Positions 18,016 through 33,766 of a stretch of 64,000 nucleotides of DNA are shown here, piece by piece. Positions within the stretch are counted from its first letter, which is position 1. The number at the start of each line of letters is the position of its first letter. The notes beneath the pieces are model-generated. The model did not search any database. It saw nothing but the letters and a program-made list of their open reading frames with translations, and was not told the DNA's origin. The position numbers were made by a program, and so were the translations under genes. This stretch comes from the human T2T-CHM13v2.0 reference genome, Homo sapiens, in assembly GCF_009914755.1 (NCBI RefSeq), contig NC_060940.1; one strand, 5' to 3'.

Positions 18016-18664
18016 CCAGTTTCCAAAGAGGGACTTAAAATAGAAAGTTTAGTCAGGTGGGACTCAAGACCTGGGCAATATGTCCATCCTGGTAACTACA
18101 CCCATGGGGGCTTAACTTTTAGTGTAGAGGGTCTTTGGTGAAATAACTAACTGGCAGATGAATGGGCCCTTGCTAAGACTAAAAACCAAAGCTTGCTTCC
18201 TCTTGGAGCAAAAGCATTTTAGCCGACATGATGTAAGACTGTAGCCAAGCTGAAACAATGAAAAGCAGAGGAAACTTCCTTCCCTATGAAACAGGTAACA
18301 AAACACAGTGACACCAGCAGCCCTCTCATCCCATTTATTAAAGAAACAGTAAGAAAAGATACAATGCAGGAAAACCACCAACCATCCTTGCACACCAGGC
18401 CGAACAAAGCACAGTGATTTCTTCCCTTCATCCCCCACCCCCACCCTAATTCCCATATTCCCATCCACATCAGTTTAAATTTTGAGGTTCTTTGATTGAT
18501 TGGGAGTACCAGTGAAGAGGGAGTTGGATGAGTAGAGGGGCCTTAAATCTGGCCACCTCTAAGTCCCAGGAGAAGGGAGCTGCAGGCCCAGTCAGTCAAG
18601 CAGAAACTGCATTCGGTGGGTCTTTCTTTGAAGTGGTTGTCCATCTCCCTGTTCTGTGTTCAAG

Positions 18665-18772
18665 CCCCCAGGGAAAGGTATGGCAGTAGAGGATGACCAG
18701 GTCCAAGCTGCCCAGGTCAGAGCTACGGAAGCATGGTCCGTTCACCAACGCCACGTTTCTAGAGAGCAGTGA
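18665..18772 (+). CDS. HAS3: HAS3 alternative terminal coding exon (short isoform C-terminus PPGKGMAVEDDQVQAAQVRATEAWSVHQRHVSREQ*)
   Basis: Acceptor ctccctgttctgtgttcaag|, phase 0 and compatible with the 13856 donor; gives 246+35 = 281 aa, matching my recollection of HAS3 isoform b. Confidence 0.75.
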   Translation, partial: PPGKGMAVEDDQVQAAQVRATEAWSVHQRHVSREQ

Positions 18773-19163
18773 GCTGATTCTCCAATGGTGAGCAGGGGAC
18801 TACATGTGAACTGGGACCTGCAGGCCAATGTATCCCTGAGGAAAAGTCCACAAGAACAATTCAAGAAACTAGTAAGAAACAATGGGCAGAAAGCTGTGGG
18901 ACGAAAGCACAGCAGGCTTCTGGGAGGCTGGAGATCCTTTCTCTCAAGGGCAGGATTATTCCCACCTGCCACAGTTCACATGCCACAAATAACATCTCAC
19001 CTTCAGTCAAGAAAAACGCAAAGGAAAAAGATGGCTCATTTGAACTTGAGCCCAAGCTATGTTCTTCAGACTGTAGCTCCACAACTACCCTTTTACCTAA
19101 GACAGCCCCTGCCAAGAACCACAGTGCCTAGAAACCAAGGTGGTCCTGGAGGGAAAATGGTGT

Positions 19164-20738
19164 TTAAGGGGGCAACATTCCATTTGGGTACATTGCAGCC
19201 ATTGGACCCCCTGGTCTGGGGAAAGCAGCTGGGTTTGTGCCAGGGAGGCTCCCCACTCTAGGAAATGGGACGAAACTCTTGCCTGCAGGGCCATTCATCC
19301 TTGGAAAGGAAGCTGGGTTGAGACCCAGGGTCCCAGTTGGCCTTGTGAAAGGAGCTGGGTTGATACCCACAGGGCCAGCTGGAGAAGGGCCCAGATGCCC
19401 GGCAGCTGGCCTGGGGAAAGTAACTTGACCAGGGCCTAATGGGCCAGTAGACCTTGGGAAGGTAGTTGGACTTGGACCCTGCAGGCCAGTGGCCCTTGGG
19501 AAGTTAGCTGGGTTGGGGCCAAGTGGCCCAGAGGCTCTTGGGAAAATGGTTGGATTTGAGCCCTGGAGGCCAGCGGACCTTTGGAAGGTAGCTGGGTTTG
19601 ATGCCAATGTGCCAGAAGACTGAGAAAAGGCAGATGAACCTGCTCCCCTGGGAAAGGGATTGGCATTTACCCCCATGGGGCCAACTGGCCTTGAGAAATG
19701 AGCTGAATTAGGGCCTATGGGGCCAGGAGCCCTTGACATGGGAGATGGATTTGGCCCTGGAAGGCCAATTCCCCGAGAGCTAGGACCCGAGTTTGGGCCC
19801 ATGGGGCCAGGTACTCTTGCCATGGAGGATGGGCTTGTGCCCATGTTTCCAGAAGCCTGTGAGAAAGAAGCTGAATTTGCTCCTAAAAGACCTGCTGCTC
19901 TTAGAATGGGGGCAAGATCGAGGCCTTGAGGTCCAGCCATTCTTAAGTTAAGACCAGATCCTGTGCCCAAGAGGCCACCTGCTCTGGCATCTAGATTAGG
20001 GCCTGGGCCCAGGCCACTTGGTCTTGGGTTGGGCCCAAGGCCTGGGCCTGGAAACACACCTGACCTGGGGGCAGGGTTTGTCCCTAAAAAGCCTGATCTC
20101 AGATTGGGGTTTGGTCCTGGGCCCAGGCCAACTGGCCTAGGATTGGGAGGACCATTCCCAGAGGTTAACAGAACACCGGCTCTCAGGTTAGGTCCAGATC
20201 CAGGGCCCATGGGACCACCACCTCTGGGGTCAGGACCTGCTCCCAGGAGACCACCTGCCCTTGGGTTGGACATAGGACCTGGTCCTGGGAGACCCCCTAA
20301 CCTGGGGTTAGACAGAGGCCCTGGGCCTGGCAGAGCCCCTGTCCTAGGGTTTAGGGTGGGGCCTGGGCCTGGGCCTGGCCCCAAGAGGCCACCAGGCCTT
20401 GGGAAAGAAACTGCACCTGTGCCAGTGGGATTCATCCCTCTTGGAAAAGAAGCCATACTTGGGTCACGAGCACCAGCCGGGAAAGGTGCTGGATTTGAAG
20501 CCAATGAGCCTGATGAAGCTGGAAAAGGAGATGGGTTCCTTGGAAATGGGGTCAGATTTCCACCAAGAGAACCGGCCGCCATAAGGAAGGGATCCGAGTT
20601 CACACCCAGTGGGTGGCCTGTGTTCAGAACAGGACCCCCCTGTGGTCCCAGGGAACCGTCGAGCCGTCCTCGAGGTGGCAGCGGAGCACGAGTCCAAGGA
20701 GTTGGCCGCTCTCTAGGGAAAATCCGAGGTTCTTTCAT
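19164..20738 (-). CDS. DERPC: DERPC, proline/glycine-rich protein, 524 aa, single uninterrupted ORF in the CHTF8 last exon
   Basis: 1575-nt open frame [10 protein letters not shown]...MLPP; ATG with A at -3; internally repetitive; matches the known second product of the CHTF8 locus. Confidence 0.9.
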
Positions 20739-20959
20739 ACTTTCTTGGGGACGCTGGTGATAATGGGCTTGGGGCGGGTTTTGAAAAGGATCTTGTCTTT
20801 GATGAGTGCTGTCACCAGGTACCGGGTGCCAGTCTCGCGGCCAAGCTCATCACAGTCCTGATCCCCAGGAGTGTGTTTGACAAGGACTGCAAAAGGTTTC
20901 TCCAGGTGGATGATTTTCCCATACAGGATATGATGCCCCACGATCAGCACAGGGATTCC
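20735..20959 (-). CDS. CHTF8: CHTF8 last coding exon (GIPVLIVG...VPKKV*)
   Basis: Acceptor ttctgccaaag| on -; 74 aa + TGA; Ctf8 family (CTF18-RFC clamp loader subunit). Confidence 0.96.
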
Positions 20960-21362: not shown

Positions 21363-21480
21363 CTCAGTGGTGTAATGTAGGTCTCCCAGGAGGTTTCCAG
21401 CTAATCCAGTGCTGTAGCGAGCCTCGATCTCCCCCTGTAGCTCCATCAGCACCCATTCTGCCAGGCCTCCAGCCCTCGCA
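21363..21480 (-). CDS. CHTF8: CHTF8 middle coding exon (118 nt; [17 protein letters not shown]...YTTE)
   Basis: ttgcag| acceptor, GAG|GTGAGG donor; conserved Ctf8 ELQG motif. Confidence 0.96.
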
Positions 21481-21745: not shown

Positions 21746-21768
21746 CTGGAAATAACAATTTGCACCAT
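21746..21768 (-). CDS. CHTF8: CHTF8 first coding segment MVQIVIS(S); exon spans 21803-21746
   Basis: ctctacag| acceptor at 21803, ATG at 21768, CAG|GTAAGT donor; total 23+118+225 nt = 121 aa. Confidence 0.95.
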
Positions 21769-21861
21769 GAGCTTTCTGTCTTTAAAAAGCAAGTGAAAAC
21801 AAGCTGTAGAGAGAAAAAAAGAGATTTAGGGTAATAACAACAACAACTAATAATGACACCT

Positions 21862-29760: not shown

Positions 29761-32700
29761 GGAAGAAAAGTAAAGTCCAGGCAGAACATTATTTTTATAA
29801 TACAAAAGGCTTCATTTCTCACAAGCTAGCCTCGTTCACTTATCTGTATCCTCTTATTTCACCCTGACACCCTATGCTTTTAGCAAGGTCTTCTCACTCC
29901 CATTTCACAAATGAGGAAACAGGCTTAGAGGAGCTAAATGTTAACTGGTCACACAGCTACTTAAGTGGAGAGCTGGGATATGAACCCTAACCCCTCCACA
30001 ATCTGGCCCCTCTTGCAGTTCTCCTCACACAGCCCCCTCCTGTAAAGCACCTCTGTATGATAACTTCCCTTGCTTTACAAATATTAGCCTCGTTCTCACA
30101 GCATCTCTCACAAAATGGCAAAGTAACCTATGGAAAGACCTTGTAACTTGCCACCAAAGTATTATATCTGTGGGGTAGGCAGCTAAAAACAAAGAAGCAG
30201 CTTGCTTTTTATCATACCCAATTGAGATGTTTCAGTTTTTGAAACTTTTAGAAAAATCTACTCAATGCCACCTCTAGGACGCAAAGCTTTACCCTCTGCT
30301 CCTGAATGTGAAAGTCAAGAGAATAGAGGACATTCTTTGTCAAGTATTCATTTTAATCTTCCACAGAATTTAATTCTTACCCTCTGGTCTCTGAATTGTT
30401 AAATATTAAATTGTTAAAAGATTACTGTCTTACAGAGAACAGAACAGCCTGAGCAATGATCCTCATAATCCTTCAAAATAAAATGTGGCAGAAGAAAGTG
30501 TGATATGTATCCAATTAAACCGAACATATGGCTTATAGCAAAAAAGAGGCTTTGACTCAACGGTTTAACCTCAATACAAATAACTAAATTTTAATAAAGC
30601 TAAACAACGTTTTAGAAATTTTTTTTTTCAAACAGGAAACCAAGCCTTTAAATTCTCAACCCTTAAACATTCTTTTCTAAACTGGGGTGAAATCAATTAT
30701 TTCAGAGTGTAAATATTCACAATTTTCTATTTTTTGCTAGGCCAACAGTTGGCATTTATTGAGCTTTTGTTTTTTGATCCCAGGGTGGATACTTTGTTTA
30801 CGAATATAGTGAAGCACTCACTTGTCATACAGACCTGGATTCTGTGATTTTGCCACCTATCCCATATGTGACAGTGGGTAGTTTAACCTCACGTGTTTTC
30901 CTAACAATACACTGGGCATAAACACCTATTTTGAAAGGCTGTTGCAAGAACGAGTAATGAATGTAAAGCTTTTAGCACATTGTCTGACACATGGTAAGCC
31001 TTCAGGGTCAAGCTATCGATTTCCCAGAGAAAGGTGGCATTTTCTTAGTATTCATCAAATAGAATGTCTTAATACTACACTGTGTTAGCATATTAATGTT
31101 TATAACGGACTAAAGCATTCTACGAAAGCAGCAGGTCATCAGAATAAAATCAAGTTTTCATAACAGTAGAATTCAAACATGGCAGTTGTGGTTCACCAAA
31201 CTGCTTCAGGGATTAAGTTCTGGAAGGTAATTTCTCTAAATATGATGACTATGTCTCTATGTGCCTTTCTACCAAGTGAACAACTCAGAACGTTTTACAT
31301 ACAACCGAATACAGATTATTTTTATTTGTAGTGTTATCGTGGTTTTGTAACTGAAGGGGACAGGTCTATACTTTTGAAGGGGATCTTGTCTCTTGAAAGG
31401 CTTATGTTACTAAGTCTAAAATCCTGTTTCCAAATGAGAATCTTGCTCCCCTCCAAAAAGGGGCTTATGGAGGGTTGGTGGAATTGAATGCTTCCAAACT
31501 TTACATTAGTGAAGTGTGTTCAAAAACGTGTGTGGATGCTATGCATACACGTGATACTTCCCATCACATTTTAGGATTCCCACGTTGGAGGGAATCAATT
31601 ACTGGTATTTGTAGCAATGGGTGGAAAAGATGGCTTCAGTCGATCTGAGTTACTGCAGTTTTCTCCATCTTCTGCTACTCTGCAGCCCCATCTTAGCCTG
31701 TCCTCCTCTTAATGGTACGGCCCCCTGTACTCCCCCAAACCCTTTCCTTTCTAGCCCGGCGTAGAGTCTCCCTCTGTGCTCTTCCTCCCACCCACCCCCA
31801 TCTTCTCCACCCACTCCCTCTCGGCCCCCTCCCACCCTTTCTGCTAGAGCTACAAACACTTCCTATTTCTAGTCCCACCCACTTTCTGGGACTTCTCAAT
31901 CCGCTTCCCCCCTCTTCTCCACCCCCCTCCAAATTACAAGCTGTTTTAACCCCTTTTCCTGCCTCCCAGGGAAACTATTCTTTAAACCGCCTTCCTCCAC
32001 ACCACCCACTGGAGTGGTCTTCCAAACCGTTCACCCTCTTCCCAAAGATTACTCTTTAAACGTCCTTTCTCTACCACCCTCGTTCTCCAAATTGTTCCCG
32101 GTTCTCAAGTACTCCACTCCTCCAGGACCCCACCCCACTCGTCTCTCGGCTTCCCTCCCACAAAAGAACCTGGAATGACTCTCCAACCACCCTTCCAATT
32201 ACCTCTCCCAGAAGCCTCCCCCCTCCACGATTACAAATGTTACCTGGAACAAAACCTCACGGTCCTAACCCCCACCCCGAACTCCCCTTTCTGCTCTTCC
32301 CGCTACTTCCTAGGTTCCAGTTCTACTCCGCTCCCGCAAGCATAGCGGGCTGGGCTCCCTCCCAACCCCGGGAAGAGCCCCTTCCCGCACGTACCTCGAG
32401 ATTCCGGCCCTCGCCGCCCCCTTCTCCGTCCTCCGCCCGCGCTCGGCCACCCTTTCCGCCCTTCTCCCGCTCCGCCCCGCTCGCTCCCTTCCTTCCCTCC
32501 GCCTTCCGTCTCCACACCGCTCCCTTCCCCCACACTCCTGGCCCTCCCACCCCGGAGGCCCCTCCGGGCTTGCCCCCACCTCCGCGCCGCCCTCCCGCCG
32601 CCCTCCCCCTTCCCGGCCACCCCTCCCCCGCCCGCGCTCCCCGCCCCTCGGCTCGCCATTCTTCTCTCCGAGCCGCGCGCCCCGCCCGGCCCCGGCTCCC

Positions 32701-32790
32701 TAGCTTCCCGCTCCCTCGCGCCCTCGCCCCCAATCCCGGCTCGGCCCTCGCTCCCCGCAGCCTCCCGTGCCCCCCCGCCCGCGGCCTGAC

Positions 32791-32885
32791 CTGCAATGGC
32801 GGCCGCCGAGCGCGGCGCCGCGCGGCCAACGGGCGACAACCGAACCTCCCGCCGCCGTCGCCGCCGCCGCGAGCACTGCCTGCGC
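32791..32885 (-). other. CHTF8: CHTF8/DERPC non-coding first exon (TSS approximate)
   Basis: Donor CAG|GTCAGG on - at 32791 within the CpG island; a second possible donor GAG|GTACGT at 32395. Confidence 0.75.
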
Positions 32886-32914
32886 ACTTCCGACTATGCG
32901 CCAGGAGCACTTCC

Positions 32915-32996
32915 GGGGCAGAGCCTGAGAGCGCGCGCGCACGTGGGGCCGGGGCGGAGAGAGGCGAGCACCGGGAAGGGGAGCGTGGGGCCGCTG
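32915..32996 (+). other. UTP4: UTP4 non-coding exon 1 (TSS approximate)
   Basis: Donor CTG|GTGAGT at 32996/32997. Confidence 0.8.
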
Positions 32997-33766
32997 GTGA
33001 GTTGGGGAAGGGGCGTGGGAAGCGGCTGCGAGAGCTGGGGGGGTCTTACAAGGTGGCCGGCCCAGGGTCGGCGTCCGGCTGAGCTCCTTGTCCCGAGGGT
33101 CTCCTTGTCCCGAGGCGGGGTGGGGGCTACTCTGTAGACTCGGGGAGAGGGAAGGGGAGGCGAAGACCGCGCGCGCCTCAGACGCCCCGGCCCGACCGAA
33201 CGCGCTTGCTCTGTCTGCGGGTTCCTAACCTTGAAGCTAGGCCAGTGAGGGGCGAACAAGACCTGGTCTCTACTCTCGGCCAGTATATATGTTGGCGGGC
33301 GTCGGGGGGACGGGGTAGGGTAAGTGACAGACGTCAGACCAGGCAGCCAGATTAAGTCAAACCCTGTCGTTTCTTCCTCAAGAGGAGCTCGGTTCTGCCT
33401 GCCCCATCAGCCTCACTGTCACTACCTCAGTTTAGGTCTGTTGTTTGCAAACTTAGCAATAGAGTTGAGGAGAGATGCTTGCTAAAATGCGGATTCCTAG
33501 GCGCCCCGAGATAGGAACTCTGGAGCTATGGAGTAGGACCCTTTTTGATTTTTTGCTGAAGCCTCCTTATTATTCAAGCCATTCTGAGCTTTTGAAGATT
33601 GAGTAATTCTTGTGGGGGGCATTGTTAGCAGCCATTTGGAAATGAACTTCAGGGAGATGTTGTTGGAGCCTTCCAGCCAGAACAGTGATATTAAGGAACT
33701 GAATACTATATGTGACATACTGCAGTTAACATATAGCAATAATGACTCTCTTTTCGCCCCCTAGGA

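What the first reader, a model, noticed from the sequence alone, without database searches (positions are those of the whole stretch)
20735..20738. Operon-like ATGA stop/start overlap: CHTF8 and DERPC form a bicistronic last exon
Seen: on the minus strand CHTF8 ends ...AAG AAA GTA TGA, and the A-TG of that junction is the ATG of a 524-codon ORF in another frame (4-nt ATGA overlap). Known: this geometry is the hallmark of translational coupling in bacterial operons and of termination-reinitiation in caliciviruses, and it is rare in human mRNAs. DERPC is, from memory, an annotated product of this locus, so the ORF itself is not new. Inference: ribosomes finishing CHTF8 may reinitiate on DERPC, coupling a CTF18-RFC cohesion subunit to a low-complexity protein. 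Caveat: the only UGGGA (TURBS-like) motif I see in the coding part of this exon is ~180 nt upstream (20921-20917), further than in viral TURBS elements.
Basis: partly seen in the sequence, partly recalled or inferred. Interest (0 to 1): 0.85.

Follow-up and report, generated by a model that had tools for sequence, protein, structure and literature searches.

The report
CHTF8 stop overlaps DERPC start (ATGA)
The four-letter stop/start overlap between the human CHTF8 and DERPC reading frames is real and already annotated, but DERPC is more simply explained by spliced mRNAs that lack the CHTF8 frame than by ribosomes restarting at the overlap.

Summary
On the minus strand CHTF8 ends AAG AAA GTA TGA (stop 20737-20735), and the ATG at 20738-20736 opens a 524-codon ORF, which is RefSeq DERPC.

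The ATGA itself is not unusual. In 120 randomly drawn chr16 RefSeq Select mRNAs, 6 have ATGA at the stop and 11 have an ATG sharing bases with the stop, but those ORFs are only 3-108 codons long. The long ORF is the unusual part.

I found no support for virus-like coupling:
- The only UGGGA in this exon is 180 nt upstream and is expected by chance.
- There is no unusual RNA structure (z = +0.49).
- There is no excess complementarity to 18S rRNA.

A simpler route is annotated. Five of the 7 RefSeq DERPC mRNAs, including the Select one, skip exon 3 (four alone, one together with exon 2). Where the CHTF8 AUG remains, its frame is cut to a 12-codon upstream ORF. The chrX retrocopy CHTF8P1 derives from exactly that exon-3-skipped form.

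One paper has already shown ribosome density on this ORF in human and mouse and raised the same question of bicistronic mRNA versus separate transcripts.

The locus is already known. Coupling remains untested and is the minority reading.

The parts
20735..20738 (-). ATGA stop/start overlap: ATG of DERPC at 20738-20736, TGA of CHTF8 at 20737-20735
20735..20959 (-). Last coding part of CHTF8 (75 codons including the stop, phase 0 at the exon start). The rest of the CDS lies at 21363-21480 and 21746-21768.
19164..20738 (-). DERPC ORF, 524 codons plus stop. It is proline/glycine-rich (P 109, G 99), has no Pfam match, and has GC1/GC2/GC3 of 0.63/0.69/0.43.
21363..21480 (-). Cassette exon 3 (118 nt, not a multiple of 3). 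Including it gives the 121-codon CHTF8 ORF. Skipping it turns the CHTF8 AUG into the start of a 12-codon upstream ORF.
21746..21803 (-). Exon 2, which carries the CHTF8 AUG at 21768-21766 (context AAGCTCATGG). It is skipped in NM_001040144.3 and NM_001366603.2.
20812..20922 (-). 36-codon upstream ORF (AUG at 20922, stop codon beginning at 20814) present in all transcripts. An inner AUG at 20850 is in the same frame. It ends about 73 nt before the DERPC AUG.
20847..20852 (-). TGATGA double stop in the DERPC frame, 36 codons upstream of the ATG. No ATG, GTG or TTG lies between it and the ATG, so 20738 is the first start in this frame.
20917..20921 (-). The only UGGGA in the CHTF8-coding part of the last exon, about 180 nt upstream of the junction. 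It is expected by chance.
20232..20351 (-). 42-nt (14-codon) tandem repeat array inside DERPC, 2.9 copies
19433..19616 (-). 42/84-nt tandem repeat array inside DERPC (3.8 copies of 42 nt, or 2.2 copies of 84 nt)
18836..20416 (-). Optional GT-AG intron (1581 nt) inside the DERPC ORF. It gives the 132-aa short isoform (CDS 20417-20738 plus 18759-18835).

Best explanation
This is the known, RefSeq-annotated two-gene locus CHTF8/DERPC. The last exon holds the end of the CHTF8 frame and, starting one base before the CHTF8 stop, the whole DERPC frame. I think DERPC is made mainly from alternatively spliced mRNAs rather than by restart at the overlap. Skipping the 118-nt exon 3 shifts the frame, so the CHTF8 AUG opens only a 12-codon upstream ORF. 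A second upstream ORF of 36 codons follows. Both end before the DERPC AUG, which ribosomes then reach by ordinary leaky scanning or by reinitiation after short ORFs. Exon 3 therefore acts as a switch between a CHTF8-coding and a DERPC-coding message. The ATGA is then a by-product: an ATG lies on the stop in about 1 gene in 20, and here it became the first start of a frame that grew long, partly through 42-nt in-frame repeats. What is shown: the geometry, the transcript models, the layout of upstream ORFs, the retrocopy of the skipped form, and the absence of viral-type signals. What is inferred: which mRNA actually feeds DERPC synthesis.
For:: of the 7 RefSeq DERPC mRNAs, 4 skip exon 3 and 1 skips exons 2 and 3, and this group includes the Select transcript NM_001002847.4. 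In the 4 that skip exon 3 alone, the CHTF8 AUG gives a 12-codon ORF with its stop at 20946, and the next ORF (AUG 20922) stops at 20814, upstream of the DERPC AUG. The upstream AUGs have only moderate contexts: -3 C with +4 G, -3 T with +4 G, and -3 G with +4 A; the chrX processed pseudogene CHTF8P1 aligns as one piece to positions 11-2803 of the exon-3-skipped mRNA (93.0% identity over 2797 columns). It joins exon 2 directly to exon 4 and ends in an A-rich tail, so this isoform was a real germline mRNA; exon 3 has the least pyrimidine-rich acceptor of the three internal acceptors (a qualitative reading); on the full-length mRNA 5 AUGs, one in strong context, and a 121-codon ORF precede the DERPC AUG, which makes scanning access unlikely there; no TURBS-like motif, structure or 18S complementarity near the junction. 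ATGA at a stop occurs in 6 of 120 sampled genes, so it needs no special explanation. (passages read): Michel et al. 2015 show ribosome density on this ORF in human and mouse and say it may come from different transcripts of the locus.
Against: I have no measure of how abundant the exon-skipped mRNAs are relative to the full-length one. The retrocopy shows existence, not abundance. Two of the 7 RefSeq DERPC models keep a CHTF8-frame ORF that ends at the ATGA: NM_001366602.2 has the full 121 codons, and NM_001040144.3 has 102 codons from an inner AUG. RefSeq therefore does not itself exclude a bicistronic reading. The Select DERPC mRNA still has 3 upstream AUGs, so DERPC translation from it would be damped. 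The authors leave both readings open. The start MKEPRIF... is kept in 3 of 3 primate short-isoform proteins, which is what either model predicts.
Confidence: 0.55

Rival explanations
1. Termination-reinitiation. On the full-length mRNA a fraction of ribosomes (or 40S subunits) that terminate at the CHTF8 UGA stay on the message and restart at the overlapping AUG. DERPC output would then be tied to CHTF8 translation, without a viral-type TURBS.
For: The stop and start share bases, which is the geometry used by caliciviruses and influenza B (review passages). Both full ORFs lie on NM_001039690.5 and NM_001040146.5, and NM_001366602.2 is annotated as a DERPC mRNA despite carrying the full CHTF8 ORF. 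Gould et al. 2014 (abstract and two Results sections read) found that 5 of 24 tested human mRNAs with overlapping ORFs lost ORF-2 expression when the ORF-1 stop was moved, so cellular coupling after long ORFs exists. The DERPC AUG has a purine at -3.
Against: The upstream ORF is 121 codons, and reinitiation after long ORFs normally needs a special element. No such element is visible. The nearest UGGGA is 180 nt upstream, and the pentamer occurs 340 times in the window. The fold of 20640-20860 has z = +0.49, and 139 of 200 shuffles fold as well. The longest 18S complement in the 100 nt upstream is 8 nt, reached by 881 of 1000 shuffles. The CHTF8 tail is basic, not aspartate-rich. Known coupling efficiencies are 3-20%, which would make DERPC a minor product. 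describes 'high' ribosome occupancy, but I could not see the figure.
Confidence: 0.2
2. Access independent of the upstream ORF on the full-length mRNA: leaky scanning past all upstream AUGs, or internal or eIF4G-driven initiation in the 3' part of the message.
For: The CHTF8 AUG lacks a purine at -3. The search listing includes a paper on eIF4G-driven translation of downstream ORFs in mammalian cells (PMC7544200, listing and abstract start only). In Gould et al., 8 tested genes showed ORF-2 expression that did not depend on the ORF-1 stop.
Against: Five AUGs, one in strong context (GGCAGAATGG), precede the DERPC AUG on the full-length mRNA. There is no unusual structure near the start. Nothing here tests internal entry.
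Confidence: 0.07
3. A -1 ribosomal frameshift near the end of CHTF8 makes a CHTF8-DERPC fusion protein. The DERPC frame is the -1 frame and is open for 36 codons before the ATG.
For: Frame relation and the open stretch. One seal gene model joins CHTF8-like and DERPC-like sequence (P0001), but it does so through a predicted splice, not at the junction.
Against: There are 0 canonical X XXY YYZ heptamers in the CHTF8 frame of the last exon, and no stable downstream structure.
Confidence: 0.01

Closest known systems
TURBS-dependent termination-reinitiation of caliciviruses and influenza B segment 7 (UAAUG / AUGA overlaps)
   Same: Out-of-frame stop and start share nucleotides at the end of a long upstream ORF (review passages).
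   Different: There is no 18S-complementary motif within about 100 nt and no supporting structure. The downstream ORF is four times longer than the upstream one. Dependence on upstream termination is untested.
Human mRNAs with overlapping ORF-1/ORF-2 tested by Gould et al. 2014 (PMC3923131)
   Same: A cellular mRNA whose second ORF starts at the ORF-1 stop and runs into the '3' UTR'. The reporter design used there (moving the ORF-1 stop) is exactly the test needed here.
   Different: CHTF8 does not occur in the main text of that paper (listing, 0 occurrences). The one mechanism they defined needs an aspartate-rich ORF-1 tail, which CHTF8 lacks.
RefSeq loci annotated as two protein-coding genes with identical extents (for example RPP14/HTD2, PYURF/PIGY, ZBED6/ZC3H11A, MFRP/C1QTNF5, SLC35A4 and its upstream-ORF gene)
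   Same: CHTF8/DERPC is one of 10 such pairs among 20,089 protein-coding genes. The two unrelated proteins share exons and mRNA ends.
   Different: From the annotation available I could check only this pair at sequence level. Here the ORFs abut with a 4-nt overlap, and splice variants that remove the first ORF are annotated.
Main ORFs controlled by upstream ORFs and reached by leaky scanning or reinitiation after short ORFs (general model, reviewed as 'scenario 1')
   Same: In the Select DERPC mRNA, two short upstream ORFs (12 and 36 codons) end before the DERPC AUG.
   Different: The first upstream ORF is the truncated start of another real gene and is created by exon skipping.

Membership tests
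TURBS-type termination-reinitiation | Stop of ORF-1 and start of ORF-2 overlap or lie within about 20-30 nt | tested here: met
   ATGA at 20738-20735. The distance rule comes from the review passages.
   The nearest minus-strand TGGGA is at 20917-20921, 180 nt upstream, and the pentamer occurs 340 times in the window. The longest perfect complement to 18S in the 100 nt upstream is 8 nt, and 881 of 1000 shuffles reach that.
TURBS-type termination-reinitiation | Structured RNA element presenting the motif | tested here: not met
   The fold of 20640-20860 (-) gives MFE -59.4 kcal/mol, against a shuffle mean of -61.85, z = +0.49.
TURBS-type termination-reinitiation | ORF-2 expression depends on translation and termination of ORF-1 | not testable with these tools
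   This needs reporters with a moved stop or a removed CHTF8 AUG.
Amino-acid-dependent coupling (Gould et al. 2014) | Aspartate-rich repeat at the C-terminus of ORF-1 | tested here: not met
   The CHTF8 tail reads ...[15 protein letters not shown]. The feature is taken from the abstract.
Bicistronic human locus (two proteins, one mature mRNA) | At least one annotated mature transcript carries both complete ORFs | tested here: met
   NM_001039690.5 and NM_001040146.5 hold the 121-codon and 524-codon ORFs. NM_001366602.2 holds the 121-codon and 132-codon ORFs.
Bicistronic human locus (two proteins, one mature mRNA) | Both ORFs are translated from that same molecule | not testable with these tools
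   Ribosome density on the DERPC ORF in human and mouse is reported, but the authors state it may come from other transcripts.
Splice-switched two-product gene with upstream-ORF-controlled second product | Annotated isoforms remove or truncate the first ORF | tested here: met
   Five of the 7 DERPC mRNAs have no CHTF8-frame ORF reaching the ATGA. The retrocopy CHTF8P1 lacks exon 3.
Splice-switched two-product gene with upstream-ORF-controlled second product | The remaining upstream ORFs are short and end before the main AUG | tested here: met
   The ORFs are 12 and 36 codons, with stops at 20946 and 20814. The DERPC AUG is at 20738.
Splice-switched two-product gene with upstream-ORF-controlled second product | The skipped isoforms are the ones carrying ribosomes on DERPC | not testable with these tools
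   This needs isoform-resolved ribosome or polysome data.
Programmed -1 frameshift fusion | Slippery heptamer X XXY YYZ in the upstream frame | tested here: not met
   There are 0 hits in the CHTF8 frame of the last exon.

The most novel reading that the evidence does not exclude
The full-length CHTF8 mRNA is a true cellular bicistronic message. After the 121-codon CHTF8 ORF, post-termination ribosomes restart at the overlapping AUG without any TURBS-like tether. This would fix a ratio between a CTF18-RFC subunit and a 524-residue proline/glycine-rich nuclear protein. It would also suggest a route for gene birth: DERPC could have arisen from one of the many chance ATGA stops, because such an AUG is the best placed in a 3' UTR to catch terminating ribosomes, and the ORF then grew by 42-nt in-frame repeats. 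This would be one of the longest downstream ORFs served by stop-start coupling in a cellular mRNA.
Probability: 0.15. Interest if true: 0.65.

Novelty: already known. Interest (0 to 1): 0.3.

Why it matters
If coupling were shown, CHTF8/DERPC would be a natural human model for reinitiation after a long ORF without a viral element. It would also link the dose of a replication/cohesion factor to a protein of unknown function. As it stands, the value of this check is a correction. The overlap is annotated and has been discussed in print. The ATGA motif at a stop is common. An exon-skipping switch explains DERPC without unusual translation. A practical consequence follows for variant interpretation: changes in exon 3 or at its splice sites may shift the CHTF8/DERPC balance, and 'CHTF8' expression values that count reads in the shared last exon mix two genes.

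Tried and rejected
Routes that led nowhere or were rejected:

- TURBS-like signal: rejected on the motif position, the fold and an unbiased 18S complementarity scan.
- -1 frameshift fusion: no slippery site.
- Pfam domains in DERPC: none at E <= 1.
- Cross-species conservation of the junction at DNA level: not possible, because no vertebrate genomes other than this reference are reachable.
- Protein searches gave little. The full-length DERPC search found 2 proteins among 1141 scored candidates, with 6859 left out as unnamed; both are seal and raccoon-dog gene models that look mispredicted. The N-terminal 110 aa found 3 primate short isoforms among 8 scored, with 23 left out. Region 1-110 of the full protein found 1 among 76 scored, with 316 left out. 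All 3 primate proteins start [12 protein letters not shown]..., but they are homology-driven predictions.
- Literature. CHTF8 or DERPC: 160 papers, 30 listed. CHTF8 + bicistronic: 1 paper. CHTF8 + reinitiation: 0. CHTF8 + polycistronic: 0. DERPC + ORF: 4. Searches were too broad to be useful for CHTF8.
- Papers not held: Sun et al. 2002 (PMC2039945). An id that I guessed from memory for Kim et al. 2014 was also not held.
- Vanderperre et al. 2013 does not name CHTF8 in its main text; its supplements are closed.
- Supplemental Table 1 of Gould et al. and the figures of Michel et al. and of the TOGA2 preprint could not be seen and may bear on the claim.

Full report
**1. The observation**

The minus strand reads ...CCC AAG AAA GTA TGA AAG AAC.... 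The TGA at 20737-20735 closes the frame that RefSeq calls CHTF8. The ATG at 20738-20736 opens a 524-codon ORF running to 19164, which RefSeq calls DERPC. In the DERPC frame a TGATGA double stop lies 36 codons upstream (20852-20847), with no ATG, GTG or TTG in between, so 20738 is the first possible start in that frame.

**2. Is it more than chance?**

I drew 120 chr16 RefSeq Select mRNAs at random, keeping only those whose stop lies in the last exon and leaving out CHTF8 and DERPC. I fetched the sequence from 30 nt before the stop to the end of the exon, capped at 6 kb.

- All 120 were usable, and 68 end in TGA.
- Six have ATGA at the stop and 5 have TGATG, so 11 of 120 have an ATG sharing bases with the stop.
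- The ORFs opened there are 3-108 codons long.

The four-letter geometry is therefore common, about 5% for ATGA. The rare thing is the length of the downstream ORF. It has 0 stops in frame, against 19 and 13 in the other two frames, and the longest ORF in 2000 shuffles of 19164-20959 was 345 codons.

The ORF looks like a real coding frame. Its G+C is high at codon positions 1 and 2 (0.63, 0.69) and lower at position 3 (0.43), as expected for a frame full of Pro and Gly codons (109 P and 99 G). It contains two arrays of 42-nt, 14-codon tandem repeats. It has no Pfam match.

**3. What the locus is**

CHTF8 and DERPC are one of only 10 pairs of RefSeq protein-coding genes with identical extents among 20,089. 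RefSeq lists 9 mRNAs. I rebuilt each from its exon coordinates and listed every AUG up to the DERPC AUG.

- The two CHTF8 mRNAs carry both full ORFs. On them the DERPC AUG is preceded by 5 AUGs, one in strong context, and by the 121-codon ORF.
- Of the 7 DERPC mRNAs, 4 skip the 118-nt exon 3 (21363-21480); this group includes the Select transcript NM_001002847.4.
- One DERPC mRNA skips both exon 2 and exon 3.
- One skips exon 2 only. It keeps a 102-codon CHTF8-frame ORF from an inner AUG, and that ORF ends at the ATGA.
- One, NM_001366602.2, keeps the whole CHTF8 ORF ahead of a 132-codon DERPC isoform.

Because 118 is not a multiple of 3, skipping exon 3 turns the CHTF8 AUG into the start of a 12-codon ORF with its stop at 20946. 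A second ORF of 36 codons (AUG 20922, stop 20814) follows. The DERPC AUG lies downstream of both. That is an ordinary upstream-ORF layout.

**4. Independent evidence for the skipped isoform**

A search of the whole reference with 560 nt around the junction found one other copy, on chrX. It is annotated as the pseudogene CHTF8P1.

- It aligns in a single piece to positions 11-2803 of the exon-3-skipped mRNA model, at 93.0% identity over 2797 columns (131 mismatches, 65 gap positions).
- It is followed by an A-rich tail and is flanked by Alu-like sequence.
- Against the full-length model it lacks exactly the exon 3 positions, and exon 2 is joined directly to exon 4.

The pseudogene named after CHTF8 is thus a retrocopy of the DERPC-type message. 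It keeps GTATGA and has a 1-nt deletion three to four codons into the DERPC frame.

**5. Tests of the coupling idea**

- The only UGGGA in the CHTF8-coding part of the exon is at 20917-20921, 180 nt upstream. The pentamer occurs 340 times in the window on both strands, roughly once per 380 nt per strand.
- The 221 nt around the junction fold no better than shuffles: -59.4 against a mean of -61.85 kcal/mol, z = +0.49, with 139 of 200 shuffles folding as well.
- I took an 18S rRNA gene from the same genome. The longest perfect complement to it in the 100 nt upstream of the AUG is 8 nt, and 881 of 1000 shuffles do as well.
- There is no slippery heptamer for a -1 frameshift fusion.
- The CHTF8 tail is basic. 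It is unlike the aspartate-rich tail needed in the one cellular coupling mechanism that has been defined.

None of this excludes coupling by an unknown mechanism. It removes the sequence-level support.

**6. What is in print**

- Michel et al. 2015 (PMC4832365, passages read) show high ribosome occupancy on the ORF in the '3' UTR' of human CHTF8 and of the mouse orthologue. They cite reports that its product was detected. [quoted passage not shown] - A 2026 preprint lists DERPC orthologues in eight placental mammals (passage).
- Gould et al. 2014 (abstract and two Results sections) screened human mRNAs with overlapping ORFs. In 5 of 24, ORF-2 depended on the position of the ORF-1 stop. CHTF8 is not in the main text, and the supplement is closed.
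- In the searchable library, CHTF8 co-occurs with 'bicistronic' in 1 paper, with 'reinitiation' in 0 and with 'polycistronic' in 0. I found no test of coupling at this locus in that library. About 1.7 million PMC articles and most subscription journals are not searched.

**7. Comparative data**

These are thin. The protein searches returned 3 primate short-isoform DERPC proteins (gibbon, green monkey, lemur). Their first 27 residues match the human ones and they start at the same Met. They also returned two carnivore gene models that look mispredicted. Many candidates were left out as unnamed (6859, 23 and 316 in the three searches), so blanks mean little. I could not see the junction DNA of any other species.

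**8. Verdict**

The most likely mechanism for DERPC synthesis is exon-3 skipping followed by ordinary scanning or reinitiation past two short upstream ORFs (confidence about 0.55). Stop-start coupling on the full-length mRNA stays possible (about 0.2) but has no sequence support beyond a geometry that 1 gene in 20 shares. The decisive experiments are simple reporters and isoform-resolved ribosome data. Interest 0.3; novelty: already known.

Noticed in passing
L123 (G000:C23:44039900-44043100), match at 220-2955; parent exons at window 18320-20959, 21746-21803, 32791-32895: The chrX pseudogene annotated as CHTF8P1 is a retrocopy of the exon-3-skipped, DERPC-type mRNA, not of the CHTF8-coding mRNA. 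It shows 93.0% identity over 2797 columns, has an A-rich tail, appears to be inserted in an Alu-like element, and carries a 1-nt deletion early in the DERPC frame.
   Followed up: yes
window 18665-19029 (+) versus 18759-18835 (-): The alternative last exon of HAS3 (NM_138612.3, coding 18665-18772) lies antisense to the 3' end of CHTF8/DERPC. Its coding part overlaps the last coding part of the short DERPC isoform by 14 nt (18759-18772), which is a tail-to-tail overlap of two coding sequences.
   Followed up: no
window 18836-20416 (-): An optional 1581-nt GT-AG intron lies wholly inside the DERPC ORF (an intron within a coding exon). It yields a 132-aa isoform whose last 24 residues come from beyond the long isoform's stop. 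The same 132-aa form is annotated in gibbon, green monkey and lemur.
   Followed up: partly
window 19433-19616 and 20232-20351 (-): There are two arrays of 42-nt (14-codon) tandem repeats inside DERPC. The protein has apparently grown by in-frame duplication of ...NP..FPR...-type units.
   Followed up: partly
window 19963-20760 (+): A 265-codon ORF runs antisense to DERPC. It is most simply a mirror effect of the Pro/Gly codon composition (CCN/GGN) rather than a gene.
   Followed up: no
window 32791-32996: The first exon of CHTF8/DERPC (ends at 32895, minus strand) and the first exon of UTP4 (starts at 32956, plus strand) are 60 bp apart, head to head, which suggests a shared bidirectional promoter. 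Two 'silencer' elements are annotated across this region (32474-33004).
   Followed up: no
window 21446-21456 (-): Exon 3 holds an AUG in strong context (21456, GGCAGAATGG) in the DERPC frame, which opens a 30-codon ORF. It also holds an in-frame CHTF8 AUG (21446) that would give a 102-residue N-truncated CHTF8 on the exon-2-skipped mRNA NM_001040144.3.
   Followed up: no
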